This document shows, one piece after another, positions 5,007 to 9,745 of a stretch of 32,000 nt of DNA. The notes beneath the pieces are model-generated. The model did no database searches and was not told where the DNA came from. It worked only from the letters and a program-made list of their open reading frames with translations. Source of the stretch: Candidatus Absconditicoccus praedator (GTDB lineage: Bacteria; Patescibacteriota; Gracilibacteria; Absconditabacterales; Absconditicoccaceae); assembly GCF_021057185.1 (NCBI RefSeq), contig NZ_CP054059.1, forward strand, positions 720,001-752,000, read 5' to 3'. The position numbers and the translations under genes were made by a program. Within the stretch, counting starts at the first letter, position 1; each line of letters begins with the position of its first letter.

Positions 5007-6524
5007 TAGAGAGGTGGTCCATCCGCACCTTCCGATACGGATACCTTGTTACGACTTCACCCCAGTCACTGGCTTTCCTCTCGTCCTGCATTGCAGACCT
5101 TCAAGGAACGCCAACTCCCGTGGTGTGACGGGCGGTGAGTGCAAGGAGCAGGGACATATTCACGGCGGCGTGGCTGATCCGCCATTACTAGCGATTCCAA
5201 CTTCACGTAGTCGAGTTCCAGACTACGATCCGCACTAGGGACAGTTTTAAGGGATTTGCTTAACCTCACGGTTTTGCTTCCCGCTGTACTGTCCATTGTA
5301 TTGTCTCTGGCGCCCGGGACATAAGGGCCATAATGACCTGACGTCATCCTCTCCTTCCTCCCTCTTGCGAGGGCAGTCTCCTTAGACATAGTAACTAAGG
5401 ACGAGGGTTGCGCTCGTTTCCGGACTTAACCGGACACCTTACGGCACGAGCTGACGACGGCCATGCAGCACCTGTATAGCCCTCTCAACCGAAGTTGAGA
5501 TACTCTGCTTTCACAGAGGACAGACTATATGTCAAGCCCCGGTAAGATTCTTGGCTTATTATCCAATTAACCGAGACAATCCACCGCTTGTGTACTCCCC
5601 CGCCTATCCCTTTGAGTTTCGGTCTTGCGACTGTACTCCTCAGGCGGCTCGCTTAACGCGTTAGCTTACGGCACTCCCATATAAATGAGAACACCTAGCG
5701 AGCATAGTTTACAGCATGGACTACCAGGGTATCTAATCCTGTTTGCTACCCATGCTTTCGTCCCTCACCGTCAGGATAGTTATAGCTGACTGCTTTCGCT
5801 TTCGGCATTCCTCCCGATATCAACGGATTTCACCCCTCCACCGGGAATTCCATCAGCCTCTAACTACCTCTAGCTAAGCAGTATCTACCCCCATTCCTTG
5901 GTTGAGCCAAGGTCTTTGAAAGCAGACTTACTCAGCCGGCTACGGACACTTTACGCCCAGTAATTCCGGATAACGCTTGGGACCTACGTATTACCGCGGC
6001 TGCTGGCACGTAGTTAGCCGTCCCTTATTCCTGGGGTACCGTCAGTCGTCTTCCCCCAGAAAAGGAGTTTACACCCCGTAAGGCTTCGTCCTCCACGCGG
6101 AGTCGCTGGGTCAGGGTTTCCCCCATTGCCCAAGATTCCCCACTGCTGCCCCCCGTAGGGGTATGGGCCGTGTCTCAGTCCCATTGCGGCCGACCGACCT
6201 CTCAGTCCGGCTACCCGTCGTTGCCTTGGTGAGCCTTTACCTCACCAACAAGCTGATAGGCCGCGCCCCCCTCCTAGAGCGGATAAACCTTTCCCCTATA
6301 TATTTCCATTCTATAGGGCGTATGAGGGATTAGCACCGTTTCCGATGTTATCCCTCACTCCAGGGCAGGTTGAGCACGTGTTACTCGCCCGTCTGCCGCT
6401 ATCCCTTGAATCCAATCCCCCTCAATTCCGAAGAAAAGAAAGTTCATGGTAGGGATCGCTCGACTTGCATGTGTTAGGCGCTCCGCTAGCGTTCATCCTG
6501 AGCCAGGGTCAAACTCTTCATGAT
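5007..6524 (-). rRNA. rrs: 16S ribosomal RNA (about 1518 nt)
   Basis: The 5' end is atcatgaagagtttgaccctggctcag (reverse complement at 6498-6524). Universal blocks are present, such as gtattaccgcggctgctggcac (reverse complement of GTGCCAGCAGCCGCGGTAATAC). The 3' end is aaggtatccgtatcggaaggtgcggatggaccacctctcta. The block is GC-rich against AT-rich flanks. Confidence 0.95.
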
Positions 6525-6527
6525 AAA

Positions 6528-6547
6528 CTGCTTTGCCTCTTTTAATT
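6528..6547 (-). repeat. 5' strand of the 16S processing stem
   Basis: It is the inverted repeat partner of 4954-4973 and lies inside the 66-nt 5S-16S spacer. Confidence 0.6.
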
Positions 6548-6555
6548 ACCACTAA

Positions 6556-6568
6556 TTTTAATGAACAC
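6556..6568 (-). promoter_or_regulatory. boxA-like motif GTGTTCATTAAAA in the 16S leader
   Basis: The minus strand reads gtGTTCATTAAaa. The same GTTCATTAA core recurs in the 23S leader (9770-9781). It partly resembles the boxA antitermination consensus TGCTCTTTAACAA. Confidence 0.35.
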
Positions 6569-6590
6569 TTAGACATACCATGCCTAATAT

Positions 6591-6709
6591 TGGTGGCATC
6601 AATTTACTTTCCCAGCCTCAGTGAGACCAGTATCATCAACCAACAAGATCTTAACTTCTGTGTTCGAAATGGGAACAGGTGTTTCCTCTTGCTGCATTGA
6701 TACCACCAG
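6591..6709 (-). rRNA. rrf: 5S ribosomal RNA (about 119 nt)
   Basis: The minus strand reads ctggtggtatcaatgcagcaagaggaaacacctgttcccatttcgaacacagaagttaag...gatgccaccaa. It has the conserved CCCAUxxCGAACxCAGAAGUUAAG block and a terminal helix (tggtggtatc / gatgccacca). Confidence 0.9.
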
Positions 6710-6790
6710 TATTAAACACAATGCTTTGTTTATAAGGATTTTTTCTTGTTTTTCAAGAAAAGATAGCTGATATTTTATATTTTTAAAAGA

Positions 6791-9745
6791 ACGATAAGTC
6801 CGCTCGGCCGATTAGTACATCTTTGCTAAGTGTGTCGCCACACTTACACACGATGCCTATCACCCTGTAGTCTCCAGGAGGCCTTACCTCTGTATTTGCT
6901 AAACAAACACAGAGAGGGCAACCTAATCTTGGAGTTGGCTTCCCGCTTATATGCTTTCAGCGGTTATCCTTTCCCAGCATAGCTACTCAGCCGTGCTCTT
7001 GGTAGAACAACTGATACACTAGAGGCTGGTCCACTCCGGTCCTCTCGTACTAAGAGCAGATCTCCTCAGGTTGCCTACGGGTGTGGTAGATAGGGGCCGA
7101 ACTGTCTCACGACGTTCTGAACCCAGCTCGCGTACCGCTTTAATGGGCGAACAGCCCAACCCTTGGGACCGACTACAGCCCCAGGATGCGACGAGCCGAC
7201 ATCGAGGTGCCAAACAGGGCCGTCGATATGAACTCTTGGGCCCTATTAGCCTGTTATCCCCGGAGTAGCTTTTATCCGTTGAGCGGGCTTCTTTCCACAC
7301 AGCAAGCCCGGATCACTTTCACCTAGTTTCCTACCTGTTCGACCTGTCAGTCTCACAGTCAAGCTGGCTTGTGCGAATACACTTTCACCACGGTTTCCAT
7401 CCGTAGTAAGCCAACCTTTGTGCGCCTCCGTTACTCTTTGGGAGGCATCCGCCCCAGATAAACTGCCTAGCAGACGCTGTCCCTCTATCCAGAGGTTAGT
7501 GCCAAAATATACAAAGGGTGGTATCTCACTTTCAACTCCACTCCAACTAGCGTTGGAGCTTCCAAGTTTCCCACCTATACTGAACAATGCATACTTCGAC
7601 ACAACATCAACCTGCAGTAAAGCTTCACGGGGTCTTTCCGTCTTACCACACCTACCCGGCATTTTTACCGGGAATGTAATTTCACCGAGTCCAGGGACGA
7701 GACAGTGTGGGGATGATTACGCCATTCATGCGGGTCGGAACTTACCCGACAAGGAATTTCGCTACCTTAGGACCGTCATAGTTACGGCCGTCGTTTACCA
7801 GTGCTTCGCTCCTTAGCTTACACCAAGAAGGTTAACATTCTGGTACTGGACAGGCGTCGCCTCCTATACCTCCTCTTTCGAGTTAGCAGGAAGCTGTGTT
7901 TTTGGTAAACAGTTCCCCCCACGTCATTCGCTGCGCCCTAACTCTCATTAGGGAGGGCTTATCCCGAAGTTACGCCCGCTAATTTGCCGAGTTCCTTATC
8001 CCTGGTTAACTCGATCGCCTTGGTGTTCTCCACCTGCCTACCTGTGTCGGTTCTGGGTACGGGCTGTTTATATTTAAGCTTAGAGGTTTTTCTTGGCACC
8101 AGAACTACAAAACTCTCCTACAAAAGCAGGATCGCATTCGCGCCTTGGTTTTATCTACAAAACGGATTTTCCTATTTTGTACCCATAAAGTCACCTTAGC
8201 ACTTAGACACTATAAATCCTTATAATACTTTTGCTCGTCCCGATGCGTCACCCCTTCGCAATATAAACAGGGGCAGGAATATTAACCTGCTATCCATCGG
8301 TTCACCCTTTCGGGATTCCCTTAGGCCCCGCCTAACCCTACGTCGATGAACGTTGCGTAGGAATCCTTAGGCTTCCGGCGTGCCGAATTTTCATCGGCAG
8401 ACGTTACTCATGCCAGCATTATCACTTCTATACAGTCCAGCATGCTTTTCAGCACACCTTCAGTCCGTATAGAACGCTCCCCTACCGCCTTCGAATAAAT
8501 CGAAGACCATCGACTTCGGTGAATGGCTTGAGCCCCGTTACGTCTTCGGCGCTTTCCCACTTGTTCAGTGAGCTGTTACGCACTCTTTAAAGGATTGCTG
8601 CTTCTAAGCAAACCTACTGAATGTCTCAGCAGGAAAACATCCTTTTCCACTTAGCCATTTCTTTGGGACCTTAGTCGGATGTCTGGGCTGTTTCCCTCTC
8701 GACTATGAAGCTTATCCCCCATAGTCTAACTCCACGGCATTCTTCATAGCATTCGAAGTTTAGCAAGGTTTGGTAATGCCTCTCGGCACCCCTAGCCTTA
8801 CCAGAGCTCTACCTCTATGAAGTTCAAACCGCAGGTCAACCCTAAAGTTGTTTCGGGGAGAACCAGCTATCACCACATTCGATGAGCTTTTCACTCCTAC
8901 CCACAAGTCATCCGAAGGACTTGCAGCTCCAACCGGTTCGGACCTTCAGGCCGGTTTCCCGACCCTTCATCCTGCTCATGGGTAGCTCATGTGGCTTCGG
9001 GTCTATTGACAGAAACTAAGCGCCCTATTAAGACTCGGTTTCCCTACGGCTTCAGCTATACCTGCCTTAACCTTGCTCCTGCCAATAACTCGCTGGCCCA
9101 TTCGACAATAGGTACGTGGTCATTTCACAAATGAAACTCCCACTCCCTTGTAAACTTAGGGTTTCAGGTTCTATTTCACTCCCGTTTCTCGGGTTCTTTT
9201 CACCTTTCCCTCACGGTACTATACGCTATCGATGTAAAAGAGTATTTAGCCTTACCCGGTGGTCCGGGCAGATTCACGCCATGTTCCACGTGCATGACGC
9301 TACTTGGGCAGCTGATGACAGGAGCTGCTTTGCTTTTATCTACAGGGCTATCACCTTCTATGGCTTAGCTTTCCAACTAATTCGACTAACAAAGCAACTT
9401 ACCCTGAGCACTCCCTAGATGCTCACATCAACCCCCACTACCCTGCCACAGCAACAGCCAGGGCTTTTAACACTGCAGCAGTTTGGGCTCTTCCCCGTTC
9501 GCTCGTCACTACTTAGGGAATCTCTTACGATTTCTTTTCCTCAGGGTACTGAGATATTTCACTTCCCCTGGTCCCCACCTCAATCTAATATGAGGCAGTC
9601 CGATATACGGACTGGGTTACCCCATTCGGAAATCCTCGACTAATAACGGCTGTTGGCGCCTTATCGAGGCTTTTCGCAGCCAACCACGTCCTTCTTCGGC
9701 TCTTTTACTCTAGGCATCCACCCTAAGCTCTTAAAAGACTTATCG
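6791..9745 (-). rRNA. rrl: 23S ribosomal RNA (about 2955 nt)
   Basis: The 5' end is gataagtcttttaagagcttagggtggatgcctag (reverse complement at about 9711-9745). The 3' end region is the reverse complement of cgataagtccgctcggccgattagtac. Conserved blocks are present, for example ggataacaggctaat as reverse complement at 7245-7259. An extended flanking stem pairs 6771-6800 with 9737-9766. Confidence 0.95.

What the first reader, a model, noticed from the sequence alone, without database searches (positions are those of the whole stretch)
5007..9745. Permuted ribosomal RNA operon with gene order 23S-5S-16S
All three rRNA genes are on the minus strand, but in transcriptional order they are 23S (9745 to 6791), 5S (6709 to 6591) and then 16S (6524 to 5007). 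The canonical bacterial order is 16S-23S-5S. Promoter-like modules lie only upstream of 23S. The 5S-16S spacer is just 66 nt and has no promoter-like -35/-10 pair. A strong terminator follows 16S (4905-4936). There are no spacer tRNAs. Both 16S and 23S keep their own flanking processing stems. The layout therefore looks like a functional single transcription unit in which the small-subunit rRNA is made last. Unlinked 16S and 23S-5S are known in several lineages, but a tightly linked permuted order is unusual.
Basis: partly seen in the sequence, partly recalled or inferred. Interest (0 to 1): 0.8.

Follow-up and report, generated by a model that had tools for sequence, protein, structure and literature searches.

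The report
SR1-type 23S-5S-16S rRNA operon
The ribosomal RNA genes here really are arranged 23S-5S-16S and probably form one transcription unit, but this order was already reported in 2014 as typical of the candidate phylum SR1 (Absconditabacteria), to which this genome belongs.

Summary
Rfam finds full-length 23S (9744-6791), 5S (6707-6591) and 16S (6524-5007) on the minus strand, with a 66-nt 5S-16S spacer and no spacer tRNA.

The genome reads TGA as glycine (code 25). Its Mur ligase is closest to Vampirococcus lugosii, Absconditabacterales and SR1 proteins, so it is an Absconditabacterium.

Camanocha & Dewhirst (2014, PMC4192840) already reported this 23S-5S-16S order in three SR1 genomes. 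I found it in about 50 independently assembled contigs, forming 28 16S lineages, so it is a clade trait and not a misassembly.

Comparative evidence supports one main transcription unit:
- Tandem promoters with a conserved A-rich upstream element lie before the 23S in 15 of 16 lineages.
- No promoter-like module occurs in the 5S-16S spacer in any of 28 lineages.
- A boxA-like motif and a co-varying leader-trailer helix precede both the 23S and the 16S.
- A strong terminator follows the 16S.

A third promoter-like module (6756-6729) lies in the 23S-5S spacer and is shared with the closest relative, so a secondary 5S-16S promoter is possible.

Verdict: real, coherent, already known; low-to-moderate interest.

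The parts
9930..9975 (-). Distal leader promoter P1: A-rich UP-like element (9975-9958), -35 TTGAAA (9957-9952), 16-nt spacer, -10 TATATT (9935-9930)
   Evidence: (family D1). The extended signature AAAAAAGTnTAAAAAnnTC-TTGAAA-N16-TATAnT is shared by the leader promoters of 15 of 16 lineages, against 0.48 expected from shuffles.
9803..9848 (-). Proximal leader promoter P2: UP-like element (9848-9831), -35 TTGAAA (9830-9825), -10 TATATT (9808-9803); -35 starts 86 nt upstream of the 23S
   Evidence: It is an 86%-identical 57-nt direct repeat of P1, spaced 127 nt away.
9770..9781 (-). Leader boxA-like motif GTTCATTAACAG, immediately before the 5' strand of the 23S leader-trailer helix
   Evidence: Read from the sequence. 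A regex match lies 37 nt upstream of the 23S, and the same motif occupies the same place in other lineages (GATCATTAATAG, GATCTTTAACAG). It resembles E. coli rrn boxA, whose positions 1-9 (UGCUCUUUA) are derived from PMC3177189.
9747..9771 (-). 5' strand of the 23S leader-trailer (processing) helix
   Evidence: inverted repeat I2: 25 nt, 88% complementary to 6765-6789. Duplex -46.9 kcal/mol against -20.4 for shuffles, z = -8.0.
6791..9744 (-). 23S rRNA gene, full length, no insertions
   Evidence: RF02541, 2672 bits, model positions 1-2925.
6765..6789 (-). 3' strand of the 23S leader-trailer helix
   Evidence: I2 (and I4, which includes the mature 23S termini).
6729..6756 (-). Candidate internal promoter P3 in the 23S-5S spacer: -35 TTGAAA (6756-6751), 16-nt spacer, -10 TATAAA (6734-6729). 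It has no UP element and lacks the -7 T. It overlaps a small hairpin, UUUUCUUG-AAAAA-CAAGAAAA.
   Evidence: family D2 (79-82% identical to P1 and P2) and (score 11 of 12, intergenic). L014 has TTGAAA-16-TATACT at the equivalent place with a diverged inter-hexamer sequence. Such modules occur in the 23S-5S spacers of 8 of 28 lineages, against 0.49 expected.
6591..6707 (-). 5S rRNA gene
   Evidence: RF00001, 70.7 bits, model positions 1-120.
6570..6586 (-). Small hairpin directly after the 5S (UUAGGCAU-GGU-AUGUCUAA) with no U-tract; boxB-like element or 5S 3' processing signal
   Evidence: centroid structure. Equivalent hairpins with different stem sequences occur in most lineages.
6555..6566 (-). 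Spacer boxA-like motif GTTCATTAAAAT, starting 24 nt after the 5S end and abutting the 16S helix strand
   Evidence: a boxA regex match in the 5S-16S spacer of 24 of 28 lineages (for example GATCTTTAACAG in L014). One search shows the sequences.
6528..6556 (-). 5' strand of the 16S leader-trailer (processing) helix
   Evidence: I1: 29 nt, 93% complementary to 4945-4973. Duplex -53.5 kcal/mol against -21.6 for shuffles, z = -9.1. Native pairs beat cross-lineage pairs, -37.4 against -21.5 kcal/mol.
5007..6524 (-). 16S rRNA gene, full length; 3' end GGACCACCUCUCU with a degenerate anti-Shine-Dalgarno core
   Evidence: RF00177, 1438 bits, model positions 1-1533. The 3' end is read.
4945..4973 (-). 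3' strand of the 16S leader-trailer helix
   Evidence: I1.
4902..4940 (-). Intrinsic terminator: GGCACCAC-AUCUA-GUGGUG followed by U7 (A-tract upstream, so the hairpin is symmetrical and could act in both directions)
   Evidence: -19.1 kcal/mol, z = -7.35, 0 of 200 shuffles as stable. One search lists the hairpin. Comparable terminators lie 72-138 nt after the 16S in 12 of 22 lineages.

Best explanation
This is the genuine rRNA operon of an Absconditabacterium (candidate division SR1, genetic code 25), in the 23S-5S-16S order typical of that clade. Inferred mechanism: RNA polymerase starts at two tandem sigma-70-type promoters with an A-rich UP-like element (P1 and P2, upstream of the 23S). 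It transcribes a short leader containing a boxA-like antitermination signal, then the 23S, the 5S, a 66-nt spacer and the 16S. The spacer holds a small hairpin, a second boxA-like signal and the 5' strand of the 16S helix. Transcription stops at a strong intrinsic terminator about 70-100 nt after the 16S. Each large rRNA is bracketed by its own long leader-trailer helix, which would be cut by an RNase III-type enzyme. The two cuts would also free the 5S precursor lying between them. A core promoter-like module in the 23S-5S spacer (P3) may add some 5S-16S transcription. What is shown: gene order, motifs, helices, the terminator and their conservation across lineages. What is inferred: co-transcription, Nus-factor loading at boxA, RNase III processing and any P3 activity.
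For: Clade assignment rests on TGA = Gly (31 of 34 DnaK TGA positions align with Gly) and on the best named Mur-ligase homologues, which are Vampirococcus lugosii, Absconditabacterales and SR1 including RAAC1. The window's 16S is 79-88% identical to operons in MAGs labelled Absconditabacteria. The order was published for three SR1 genomes (PMC4192840). The same order occurs in about 10 GTDB-species contigs and about 40 metagenome contigs, forming 28 lineages at 95% identity over the 16S 5' region. All have TGA-rich long ORFs wherever flanks allow a test. Promoter modules lie 40-180 nt upstream of the 23S in 15 of 16 lineages (0.48 expected) and share a conserved UP-like signature. None occurs in the last 40 nt of the 5S plus the 5S-16S spacer in 28 lineages (0.42 expected). 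Only 24 nt separate the 5S end from the spacer boxA, which is too short for a promoter. BoxA-like motifs precede both the 23S and the 16S. The 16S flanking duplex has z < -3 in 21 of 22 lineages, and native pairs beat cross-lineage pairs (-37.4 against -21.5 kcal/mol; native partner is best in 14 of 22). The 23S flanking duplex has z < -3 in 17 of 17 lineages. Terminator-like hairpins are absent inside the unit in 26 of 28 lineages and present after the 16S in 12 of 22, including the window at -19.1 kcal/mol. An independent Logan assembly (SRR15691272_204) is 100% identical across murF, the promoters and 554 nt of the 23S.
Against: No transcript data were available, so co-transcription is inferred from architecture. 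A core promoter-like module lies in the 23S-5S spacer (P3), so the unit may not have a single start. The spacer boxA in the window has A where E. coli has U6 and ends in AAAAT rather than AACAG, so it is a weaker match than in relatives. In 10 of 22 lineages my strict scan found no terminator within 260 nt after the 16S. The 5S-16S junction of this particular genome was not confirmed by a second assembly; it is supported only by analogy with relatives. The surveys could only find positive cases with spacers of about 36-110 nt, so the fraction of the clade with this order is unknown.
Confidence: 0.8

Rival explanations
1. Two nested units. Besides read-through from P1 and P2, the core promoter P3 in the 23S-5S spacer (6756-6729) is active and supplies a substantial share of 5S-16S transcripts. 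Small-subunit rRNA output would then be partly uncoupled from 23S output, for example to compensate for polarity across the 3-kb 23S.
For: TTGAAA-16-TATAAA scores 11 of 12, is intergenic, and has the clade's characteristic 16-nt spacing. The chance of such a module in an 83-nt spacer is about 0.02, based on roughly 12 expected per 2 x 27.3 kb. The closest relative L014 keeps both hexamers and the spacing while the sequence between them has diverged. Modules occur in the 23S-5S spacers of 8 of 28 lineages, against 0.49 expected. The other score-11 intergenic modules on the gene strand all sit in front of genes such as dnaK and rpsL.
Against: P3 lacks the conserved UP-like element of the leader promoters. 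In the window its -10 lacks the normally critical -7 T (TATAAA). 20 of 28 lineages have no such module, so it is not required for the arrangement. The eight positive lineages fall into about three related clusters, so they are not independent. In three lineages (L042, L054, L051) the -10 abuts or overlaps the 5S start, so a transcript would truncate the 5S. The TTGAAA lies in a small hairpin in both the window and L014 (CTTG/CAAG against AGTCT/AGACT), so an RNA structure could be the conserved feature instead.
Confidence: 0.3
2. The 16S is an independent transcription unit with its own promoter in the 5S-16S spacer or within the 3' part of the 5S, so the close linkage is only physical.
For: None was found. 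In principle, unlinked or separately transcribed 16S genes are common in other phyla (bioRxiv 10.1101/705046).
Against: No promoter-like module occurs in the last 40 nt of the 5S plus the spacer in any of 28 lineages. The 66-nt spacer is filled by a hairpin, boxA and the 29-nt helix strand. BoxA has to be transcribed to act and starts only 24 nt after the 5S. No terminator-like hairpin follows the 5S.
Confidence: 0.03
3. Assembly artefact: a chimeric join of a 23S-5S fragment and a 16S fragment, or a collapsed tandem repeat of canonical operons.
For: rRNA operons are classic assembly break points. The Logan contig for this organism does break inside the 23S at window position 9191. The 5S-16S junction of this genome was not confirmed independently.
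Against: The same order, with similar spacers, occurs in about 50 contigs from many unrelated samples and assemblers, including the closest relative L014, and in three SR1 genomes in the literature, one of them closed (PMC4192840; RAAC1 contig of 1,177,760 nt). The 16S leader-trailer helix spans the 5S-16S spacer and the 16S downstream region and is intact. Protein-coding genes (murF, and PrsW and RNase H) flank the operon directly, so it is not part of a tandem array. The murF-23S junction is reproduced by a second assembly.
Confidence: 0.02

Closest known systems
SR1 (Absconditabacteria) 23S-5S-16S rRNA operon, Camanocha & Dewhirst 2014, J Oral Microbiol (PMC4192840)
   Same: Same gene order on one strand, same tight linkage, and the same clade (code-25 candidate division SR1). 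The window is another instance of what that paper described in SR1-OR1/MEGHA, RAAC1 and ACD80.
   Different: That paper reported the order only. The text I read does not mention the comparative details found here: conserved UP-type tandem promoters, boxA before both the 23S and the 16S, co-varying leader-trailer helices, an optional internal promoter-like module, and about 28 lineages. The window's lineage is distant from the sampled relatives (16S at most 88% identical).
Canonical bacterial rrn operon (16S-tRNA-23S-5S, e.g. E. coli rrn) with boxB/boxA/boxC and leader-trailer helices (PMC10250234, PMC3177189)
   Same: Tandem promoters, a boxA-like motif just upstream of the 5' strand of a long helix bracketing each large rRNA, no internal terminators, and an intrinsic terminator at the end.
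   Different: The gene order is permuted so that the 16S is made last. There is no spacer tRNA. The 5S-16S spacer takes the role of the 16S leader, and the true leader precedes the 23S. No boxC equivalent was identified.
Unlinked rRNA genes (Brewer et al., bioRxiv 10.1101/705046)
   Same: A departure from the 16S-23S-5S layout that is conserved within clades, including Patescibacteria.
   Different: Here the genes are not unlinked. Only 266 nt, including the 5S, separate the 23S 3' end from the 16S 5' end, and no protein-coding gene intervenes.
Tandem canonical operons with a very short 5S-to-16S gap (Mycolicibacter icosiumassiliensis L003; unidentified lineage L064)
   Same: A 5S followed within about 57-103 nt by a 16S on the same strand. 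This is a possible evolutionary intermediate.
   Different: Those 16S genes are followed by another 23S, giving 16S-23S-5S-16S-23S. In the window the 16S is followed by a terminator and protein-coding genes, and the 23S is preceded by murF.

Membership tests
SR1/Absconditabacteria-type permuted rRNA operon (PMC4192840) | 23S, 5S and 16S on one strand in that transcriptional order, closely linked | tested here: met
   23S 9744-6791, 5S 6707-6591, 16S 6524-5007, all on the minus strand; spacers of 83 and 66 nt.
SR1/Absconditabacteria-type permuted rRNA operon (PMC4192840) | The host genome belongs to candidate division SR1/Absconditabacteria (UGA = Gly, code 25) | tested here: met
   TGA is a sense codon. 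31 of 34 DnaK TGA positions align with Gly and none with Trp. The best named Mur-ligase hits are Vampirococcus lugosii, Absconditabacterales and SR1 including RAAC1. Published SR1-selective 16S primers were not decisive, with one mismatch each to the SR1 and GN02 forward primers. No phylogenomic placement was done, so separation from Gracilibacteria/BD1-5 rests on protein best hits.
Canonical bacterial rrn operon | Gene order 16S-23S-5S | tested here: not met
   the order is 23S-5S-16S.
Canonical bacterial rrn operon | All three rRNAs co-transcribed from upstream promoter(s) | not testable with these tools
   Architecture is consistent with this: promoters only before the 23S (plus the P3 candidate), none in the 5S-16S spacer, no internal terminators. 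No transcript data were available.
Canonical bacterial rrn operon | Leader-trailer helices bracketing the 16S and the 23S | tested here: met
   I1 and I2. Duplex z = -9.1 for the 16S and -8.0 for the 23S. Covariation across lineages is shown for the 16S. The cross-lineage test for the 23S was confounded by boundary errors in lineages with short spacers.
rrn boxA / Nus-factor antitermination signal | BoxA sequence resembling UGCUCUUUA(ACAA) upstream of the rRNA, in both leader and spacer | tested here: met
   Window has GTTCATTAACAG (9781-9770) and GTTCATTAAAAT (6566-6555). Relatives have GATCTTTAACAG and GATCATTAATAG. The motif is in the 5S-16S spacer of 24 of 28 lineages. E. coli positions 1-9 are derived from PMC3177189; the full E. 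coli 13-mer is from my own knowledge.
rrn boxA / Nus-factor antitermination signal | Binding by NusB-NusE and antitermination activity | not testable with these tools
   This needs biochemistry or genetics. I did not check whether these genomes encode nusB or nusE.
Unlinked rRNA genes | 16S and 23S separated by a long distance and/or intervening genes | tested here: not met
   Only the 5S and two short spacers (266 nt in total) lie between the 23S and the 16S.
Intrinsic (Rho-independent) terminator | G+C-rich hairpin followed by a U-tract | tested here: met
   Positions 4940-4902: -19.1 kcal/mol, z = -7.35, followed by U7.
Sigma-70-type promoter with UP element | -35 and -10 hexamers at 16-18 nt spacing with an A/T-rich upstream element; activity | tested here: inconclusive
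   The sequence criteria are met for P1 and P2 and are conserved across lineages. P3 meets only the core criteria and lacks the -7 T. Promoter activity cannot be tested here.

The most novel reading that the evidence does not exclude
The permuted operon is not a simple single unit. In some Absconditabacteria lineages, including this one, a UP-less internal promoter in the 23S-5S spacer drives extra 5S-16S transcription. That would give these reduced-genome, single-operon bacteria a way to tune small-subunit against large-subunit rRNA output, which the canonical order does not offer.
Probability: 0.2. Interest if true: 0.45.

Novelty: already known. Interest (0 to 1): 0.25.

Why it matters
The arrangement shows that synthesising the 16S first is not required for bacterial ribosome biogenesis. 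Each large rRNA carries its own boxA and leader-trailer helix, so the order of these modules can apparently change.

It also has practical consequences. PCR or long-read amplicon schemes that run from the 16S through the ITS into the 23S cannot amplify these organisms, which is what Camanocha & Dewhirst observed. Pipelines that score rRNA genes as linked or unlinked may misclassify them.

The order is a handy synteny marker for spotting Absconditabacteria contigs that have been binned into other genomes. Several public MAG contigs labelled Bacteroides, Borreliella, Bacillota or Peribacteria carry this operon.

None of this is new in kind. The order was published in 2014. What this analysis adds is breadth (about 28 lineages) and a regulatory anatomy.

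Tried and rejected
1. Looking up window proteins in public assemblies. I therefore could not fetch a second assembly of the 16S side of the operon.

2. SR1- versus GN02-selective 16S primers from PMC4192840 as a taxon test. The result was ambiguous, with one mismatch to each forward primer, and the reverse site reads GGTG rather than GGTT.

3. murF-rrn synteny in relatives. 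It is not conserved in Vampirococcus lugosii (L067), RAAC1 (L068), L069/L070, L071 or L072, and blastn finds no rRNA in those loci. Only L066, the same organism, reproduces the junction.

4. The idea that some clade lineages (L010, L018/L020, L056) use the standard code, which would extend the order beyond recoded bacteria. Rejected: their long ORFs carry many in-frame TGAs.

5. Non-clade 5S-to-16S hits as further permuted operons. Rejected: Streptomyces, Mycolicibacter and the L058/L039/L061/L062/L064 group are canonical operons preceded by a 5S, or tandem canonical operons.

6. Cross-lineage duplex test for the 23S helix. It was confounded by my extrapolated 23S 3' boundaries in lineages with short spacers. 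I rely and on the window's own inverted repeat instead.

7. Literature searches for later descriptions of the order. I found none beyond the 2014 paper.

Full report
**1. Observation**

Rfam covariance models find three full-length rRNA genes on the minus strand:
- 23S at 6791-9744 (2672 bits, model positions 1-2925)
- 5S at 6591-6707 (70.7 bits)
- 16S at 5007-6524 (1438 bits, model positions 1-1533)

In transcriptional order this is 23S, an 83-nt spacer, 5S, a 66-nt spacer, then 16S. ARAGORN and Rfam find no tRNA inside the region.

**2. Organism**

TGA is a sense codon. Open reading frames of at least 100 aa total 921 aa under code 11 and 10,342 aa when TGA is read through. I marked the 34 TGA codons of DnaK as X and aligned the protein to solved DnaK structures. 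In the alignment to 9dvi_B, 31 fall on Gly and none on Trp, so the code is 25 and not 4.

The Mur ligase encoded next to the 23S (Pfam Mur_ligase_M and Mur_ligase_C) has these best named homologues:
- Candidatus Vampirococcus lugosii (49% identity)
- several Candidatus Absconditabacterales proteins
- candidate division SR1 proteins, including the closed RAAC1 genome

The genome is therefore an Absconditabacterium (SR1). I did not make a phylogenomic tree. Published SR1 and GN02 16S primers did not discriminate.

**3. Prior knowledge**

A full-text search for '23S-5S-16S' returns one paper, Camanocha & Dewhirst 2014 (PMC4192840). [quoted passage not shown] Later papers that I checked on unlinked rRNA genes and on CPR rRNA do not discuss the order. 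The core of the finding is thus already published for this clade.

**4. Conservation and the misassembly question**

I scanned one genome per GTDB species (185,579 species) with a generic pattern. It requires the conserved 5S loop motif, a gap allowing a 36-96-nt spacer, and then the 16S 5' end. The scan gave only 16 loci.
- Ten carry 23S-5S-16S on one strand, or 5S-16S where the locus stops short of the 23S (L010). Their 16S sequences are 79-88% identical to the window's, and L014 is the closest at 88%.
- The other six are Streptomyces, Mycolicibacter and a Rhodothermaceae MAG. Where enough sequence is held, they show a 5S in front of a canonical 16S-23S operon or tandem canonical operons.

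A similar scan of JGI metagenome contigs gave 49 loci. About 40 have the permuted order and 16S 77-82% identical to the window. The rest are canonical or tandem operons; for example, L064 reads 16S-23S-5S-16S.

The clade members form 28 groups at 95% identity over the 16S 5' region. Wherever flanks could be tested, they have long ORFs full of in-frame TGAs.

An independent Logan assembly of run SRR15691272 is 100% identical to window 9191-21287. It therefore reproduces murF, the promoters and 554 nt of the 23S.

Misassembly is very unlikely. However, the 5S-16S junction of this particular genome rests on the relatives and on the intact 16S helix that spans it.

**5. Transcription signals**

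Two TTGAAA-16-TATATT modules lie upstream of the 23S, at 9957-9930 and 9830-9803. They are part of a 57-nt direct repeat.

Aligned on the -35 hexamer, the leader promoters of the different lineages share an extended signature, AAAAAAGTnTAAAAAAGTC-TTGAAAT-N15-TATAnT. It looks like a UP element.

Counts of core modules with 16-nt spacing and a score of at least 10 of 12:

| Region | Lineages with a module | Expected from shuffles |
|---|---|---|
| 40-180 nt upstream of the 23S | 15 of 16 | 0.48 |
| 23S-5S spacer | 8 of 28 | 0.49 |
| Last 40 nt of the 5S plus the 5S-16S spacer | 0 of 28 | 0.42 |

The window is one of the eight with a module in the 23S-5S spacer: TTGAAA-16-TATAAA at 6756-6729 (family D2). 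Its closest relative L014 has TTGAAA-16-TATACT at the same place, with a different sequence between the hexamers.

The activity of this 'P3' is uncertain:
- It lacks the UP signature.
- In the window it lacks the -7 T.
- It is absent from 20 of 28 lineages.
- It overlaps a small hairpin that is also present in L014.

As calibration, such core modules occur 24 times in the window, against about 12 expected by chance. The score-11 intergenic ones on the gene strand all precede genes.

**6. RNA signals**

A motif G(A/T)TN(A/T)TTAA(N)AG lies just upstream of both large rRNAs. In the window it is GTTCATTAACAG at 9781-9770 and GTTCATTAAAAT at 6566-6555. Relatives have GATCTTTAACAG or GATCATTAATAG. 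It is present in the 5S-16S spacer of 24 of 28 lineages.

It resembles rrn boxA. E. coli positions 1-9 are UGCUCUUUA, derived from PMC3177189. The full 13-mer UGCUCUUUAACAA is from my own knowledge.

Its position directly before the 5' strand of the flanking helix fits the rrn antitermination-complex model, in which boxA anchors the leader so that it can pair with the trailer (PMC10250234). Because boxA acts as RNA, and the spacer copy starts only 24 nt after the 5S, the 16S must be transcribed from a start upstream of, or within, the 5S.

The flanking helices are strong:
- 16S: 29 nt, 93% complementary, and z < -3 in 21 of 22 lineages. Native leader-trailer pairs average -37.4 kcal/mol against -21.5 for cross-lineage pairs, and the native partner is best in 14 of 22. 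That is covariation.
- 23S: 25 nt, 88% complementary, and z < -3 in 17 of 17 lineages when the mature termini are included. The cross-lineage test was confounded by boundary errors.

No terminator-like hairpin lies inside the unit in 26 of 28 lineages. The two exceptions are weak hairpins, one inside a 5S gene and one overlapping the end of a 23S. After the 16S the window has a hairpin of -19.1 kcal/mol (z = -7.35) followed by U7. 12 of 22 lineages have a comparable terminator 72-138 nt after the 16S.

**7. Mechanism**

Most likely there is one main precursor with this layout:
- P1 and P2
- boxA and the 23S, bracketed by its helix
- 5S
- hairpin
- boxA and the 16S, bracketed by its helix
- terminator

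Cleavage of the two helices would release pre-23S and pre-16S. The 5S precursor would be the piece between them.

P3 may add 5S-16S transcripts; I put this at about 0.3 in this lineage. Co-transcription, Nus-factor loading, RNase III cleavage and P3 activity are all inferred.

A plausible origin is tandem duplication of a canonical operon followed by loss of the outer 16S and the outer 23S-5S. Tandem operons with gaps of only 57-103 nt between the 5S and the next 16S exist (L003, L064). This origin is speculation.

**8. Comparison and verdict**

The locus meets both defining features of the SR1-type permuted operon: the order, and the host clade. It shares the modular logic of canonical rrn operons but fails their defining gene order. 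It is not an unlinked arrangement.

The finding is real and coherent, and it is already known for this clade. What is added here:
- breadth of about 28 lineages
- a conserved promoter signature
- boxA before both large rRNAs
- the internal promoter candidate

I rate the novelty as 'already known' and the interest as 0.25.

Noticed in passing
window 5007-5019 (minus); gene starts throughout the window: The 16S 3' end reads GGACCACCUCUCU, so the anti-Shine-Dalgarno core CCUCC is degenerate. Relatives differ again (CACCTTTCT, CACCACCCT, CATCTCTTA). None of 26 gene starts in the window has a GGAGG-like motif in the 22 nt upstream. This suggests Shine-Dalgarno-independent initiation in this clade.
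   Followed up: partly
L007 (CAZKSK010000069.1), L002 (DYOB01000420.1), L013 (JBMOLK010000224.1), L004, L014, L015: Public MAG contigs labelled Bacteroides sp., Borreliella garinii, Bacillota bacterium and Candidatus Peribacteria carry Absconditabacteria-type 23S-5S-16S operons. L007, L002 and L015 have 16S 98-99% identical to an Absconditabacteria MAG (L012). Where flanks are held, they are low in G+C and have TGA-sense ORFs. These look like binning or labelling errors.
   Followed up: partly
L003 (Mycolicibacter icosiumassiliensis NZ_LT546166.1) 1-7973; L064, L058, L039, L061, L062: These are tandem canonical rRNA operons in which the next 16S starts only about 57-103 nt after the preceding 5S. 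They may be co-transcribed tandem operons, and they offer a possible model for how the permuted order arose.
   Followed up: no
window 6570-6586 (minus) and the equivalent position in most related loci: A small hairpin directly after the 5S recurs across lineages with different stem sequences (TTAAGCATATAGCTTAA, TTAAGTGTATAGTACACTTAA, TTAGGTATAGTACCTAA) and has no U-tract. It may be a boxB-like element or a 5S 3'-processing signal. In the L012 group and L009, a different hairpin with compensatory changes precedes the 5S.
   Followed up: partly
L066 = Logan SRR15691272_204; window 9191-21287: The Logan contig is 100% identical to the window, but its proteins were translated with code 4: all 22 TGA codons of the Mur ligase are given as Trp. 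Exact-sequence protein look-ups therefore fail for code-25 organisms, and stored proteins appear about 95% identical to the true ones.
   Followed up: yes
window 9845-9882: An A/T-rich inverted repeat (15-nt arms, 87% complementary, 8-nt loop) lies between the two tandem leader promoters (I6). L014 has a hairpin at the same place. Its function is unknown.
   Followed up: no
window 11315-12682 (minus); L069/L070: A T4SS-pilin-like membrane protein (Pfam PF18895, three matched stretches) and a small membrane protein with no Pfam hit lie between dnaK and the Mur ligase. The dnaK-small protein-pilin-murF synteny is kept in the relative at 49% MurF identity.
   Followed up: no
window 14784-14811 (minus), upstream of dnaK: The dnaK promoter-like module (TTGAAA-16-TATATT) is preceded by AAAAATTTAAAAATCTC, which closely resembles the UP-like element of the rRNA promoters P1 and P2. 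The element may therefore mark highly expressed genes in general in this organism.
   Followed up: no
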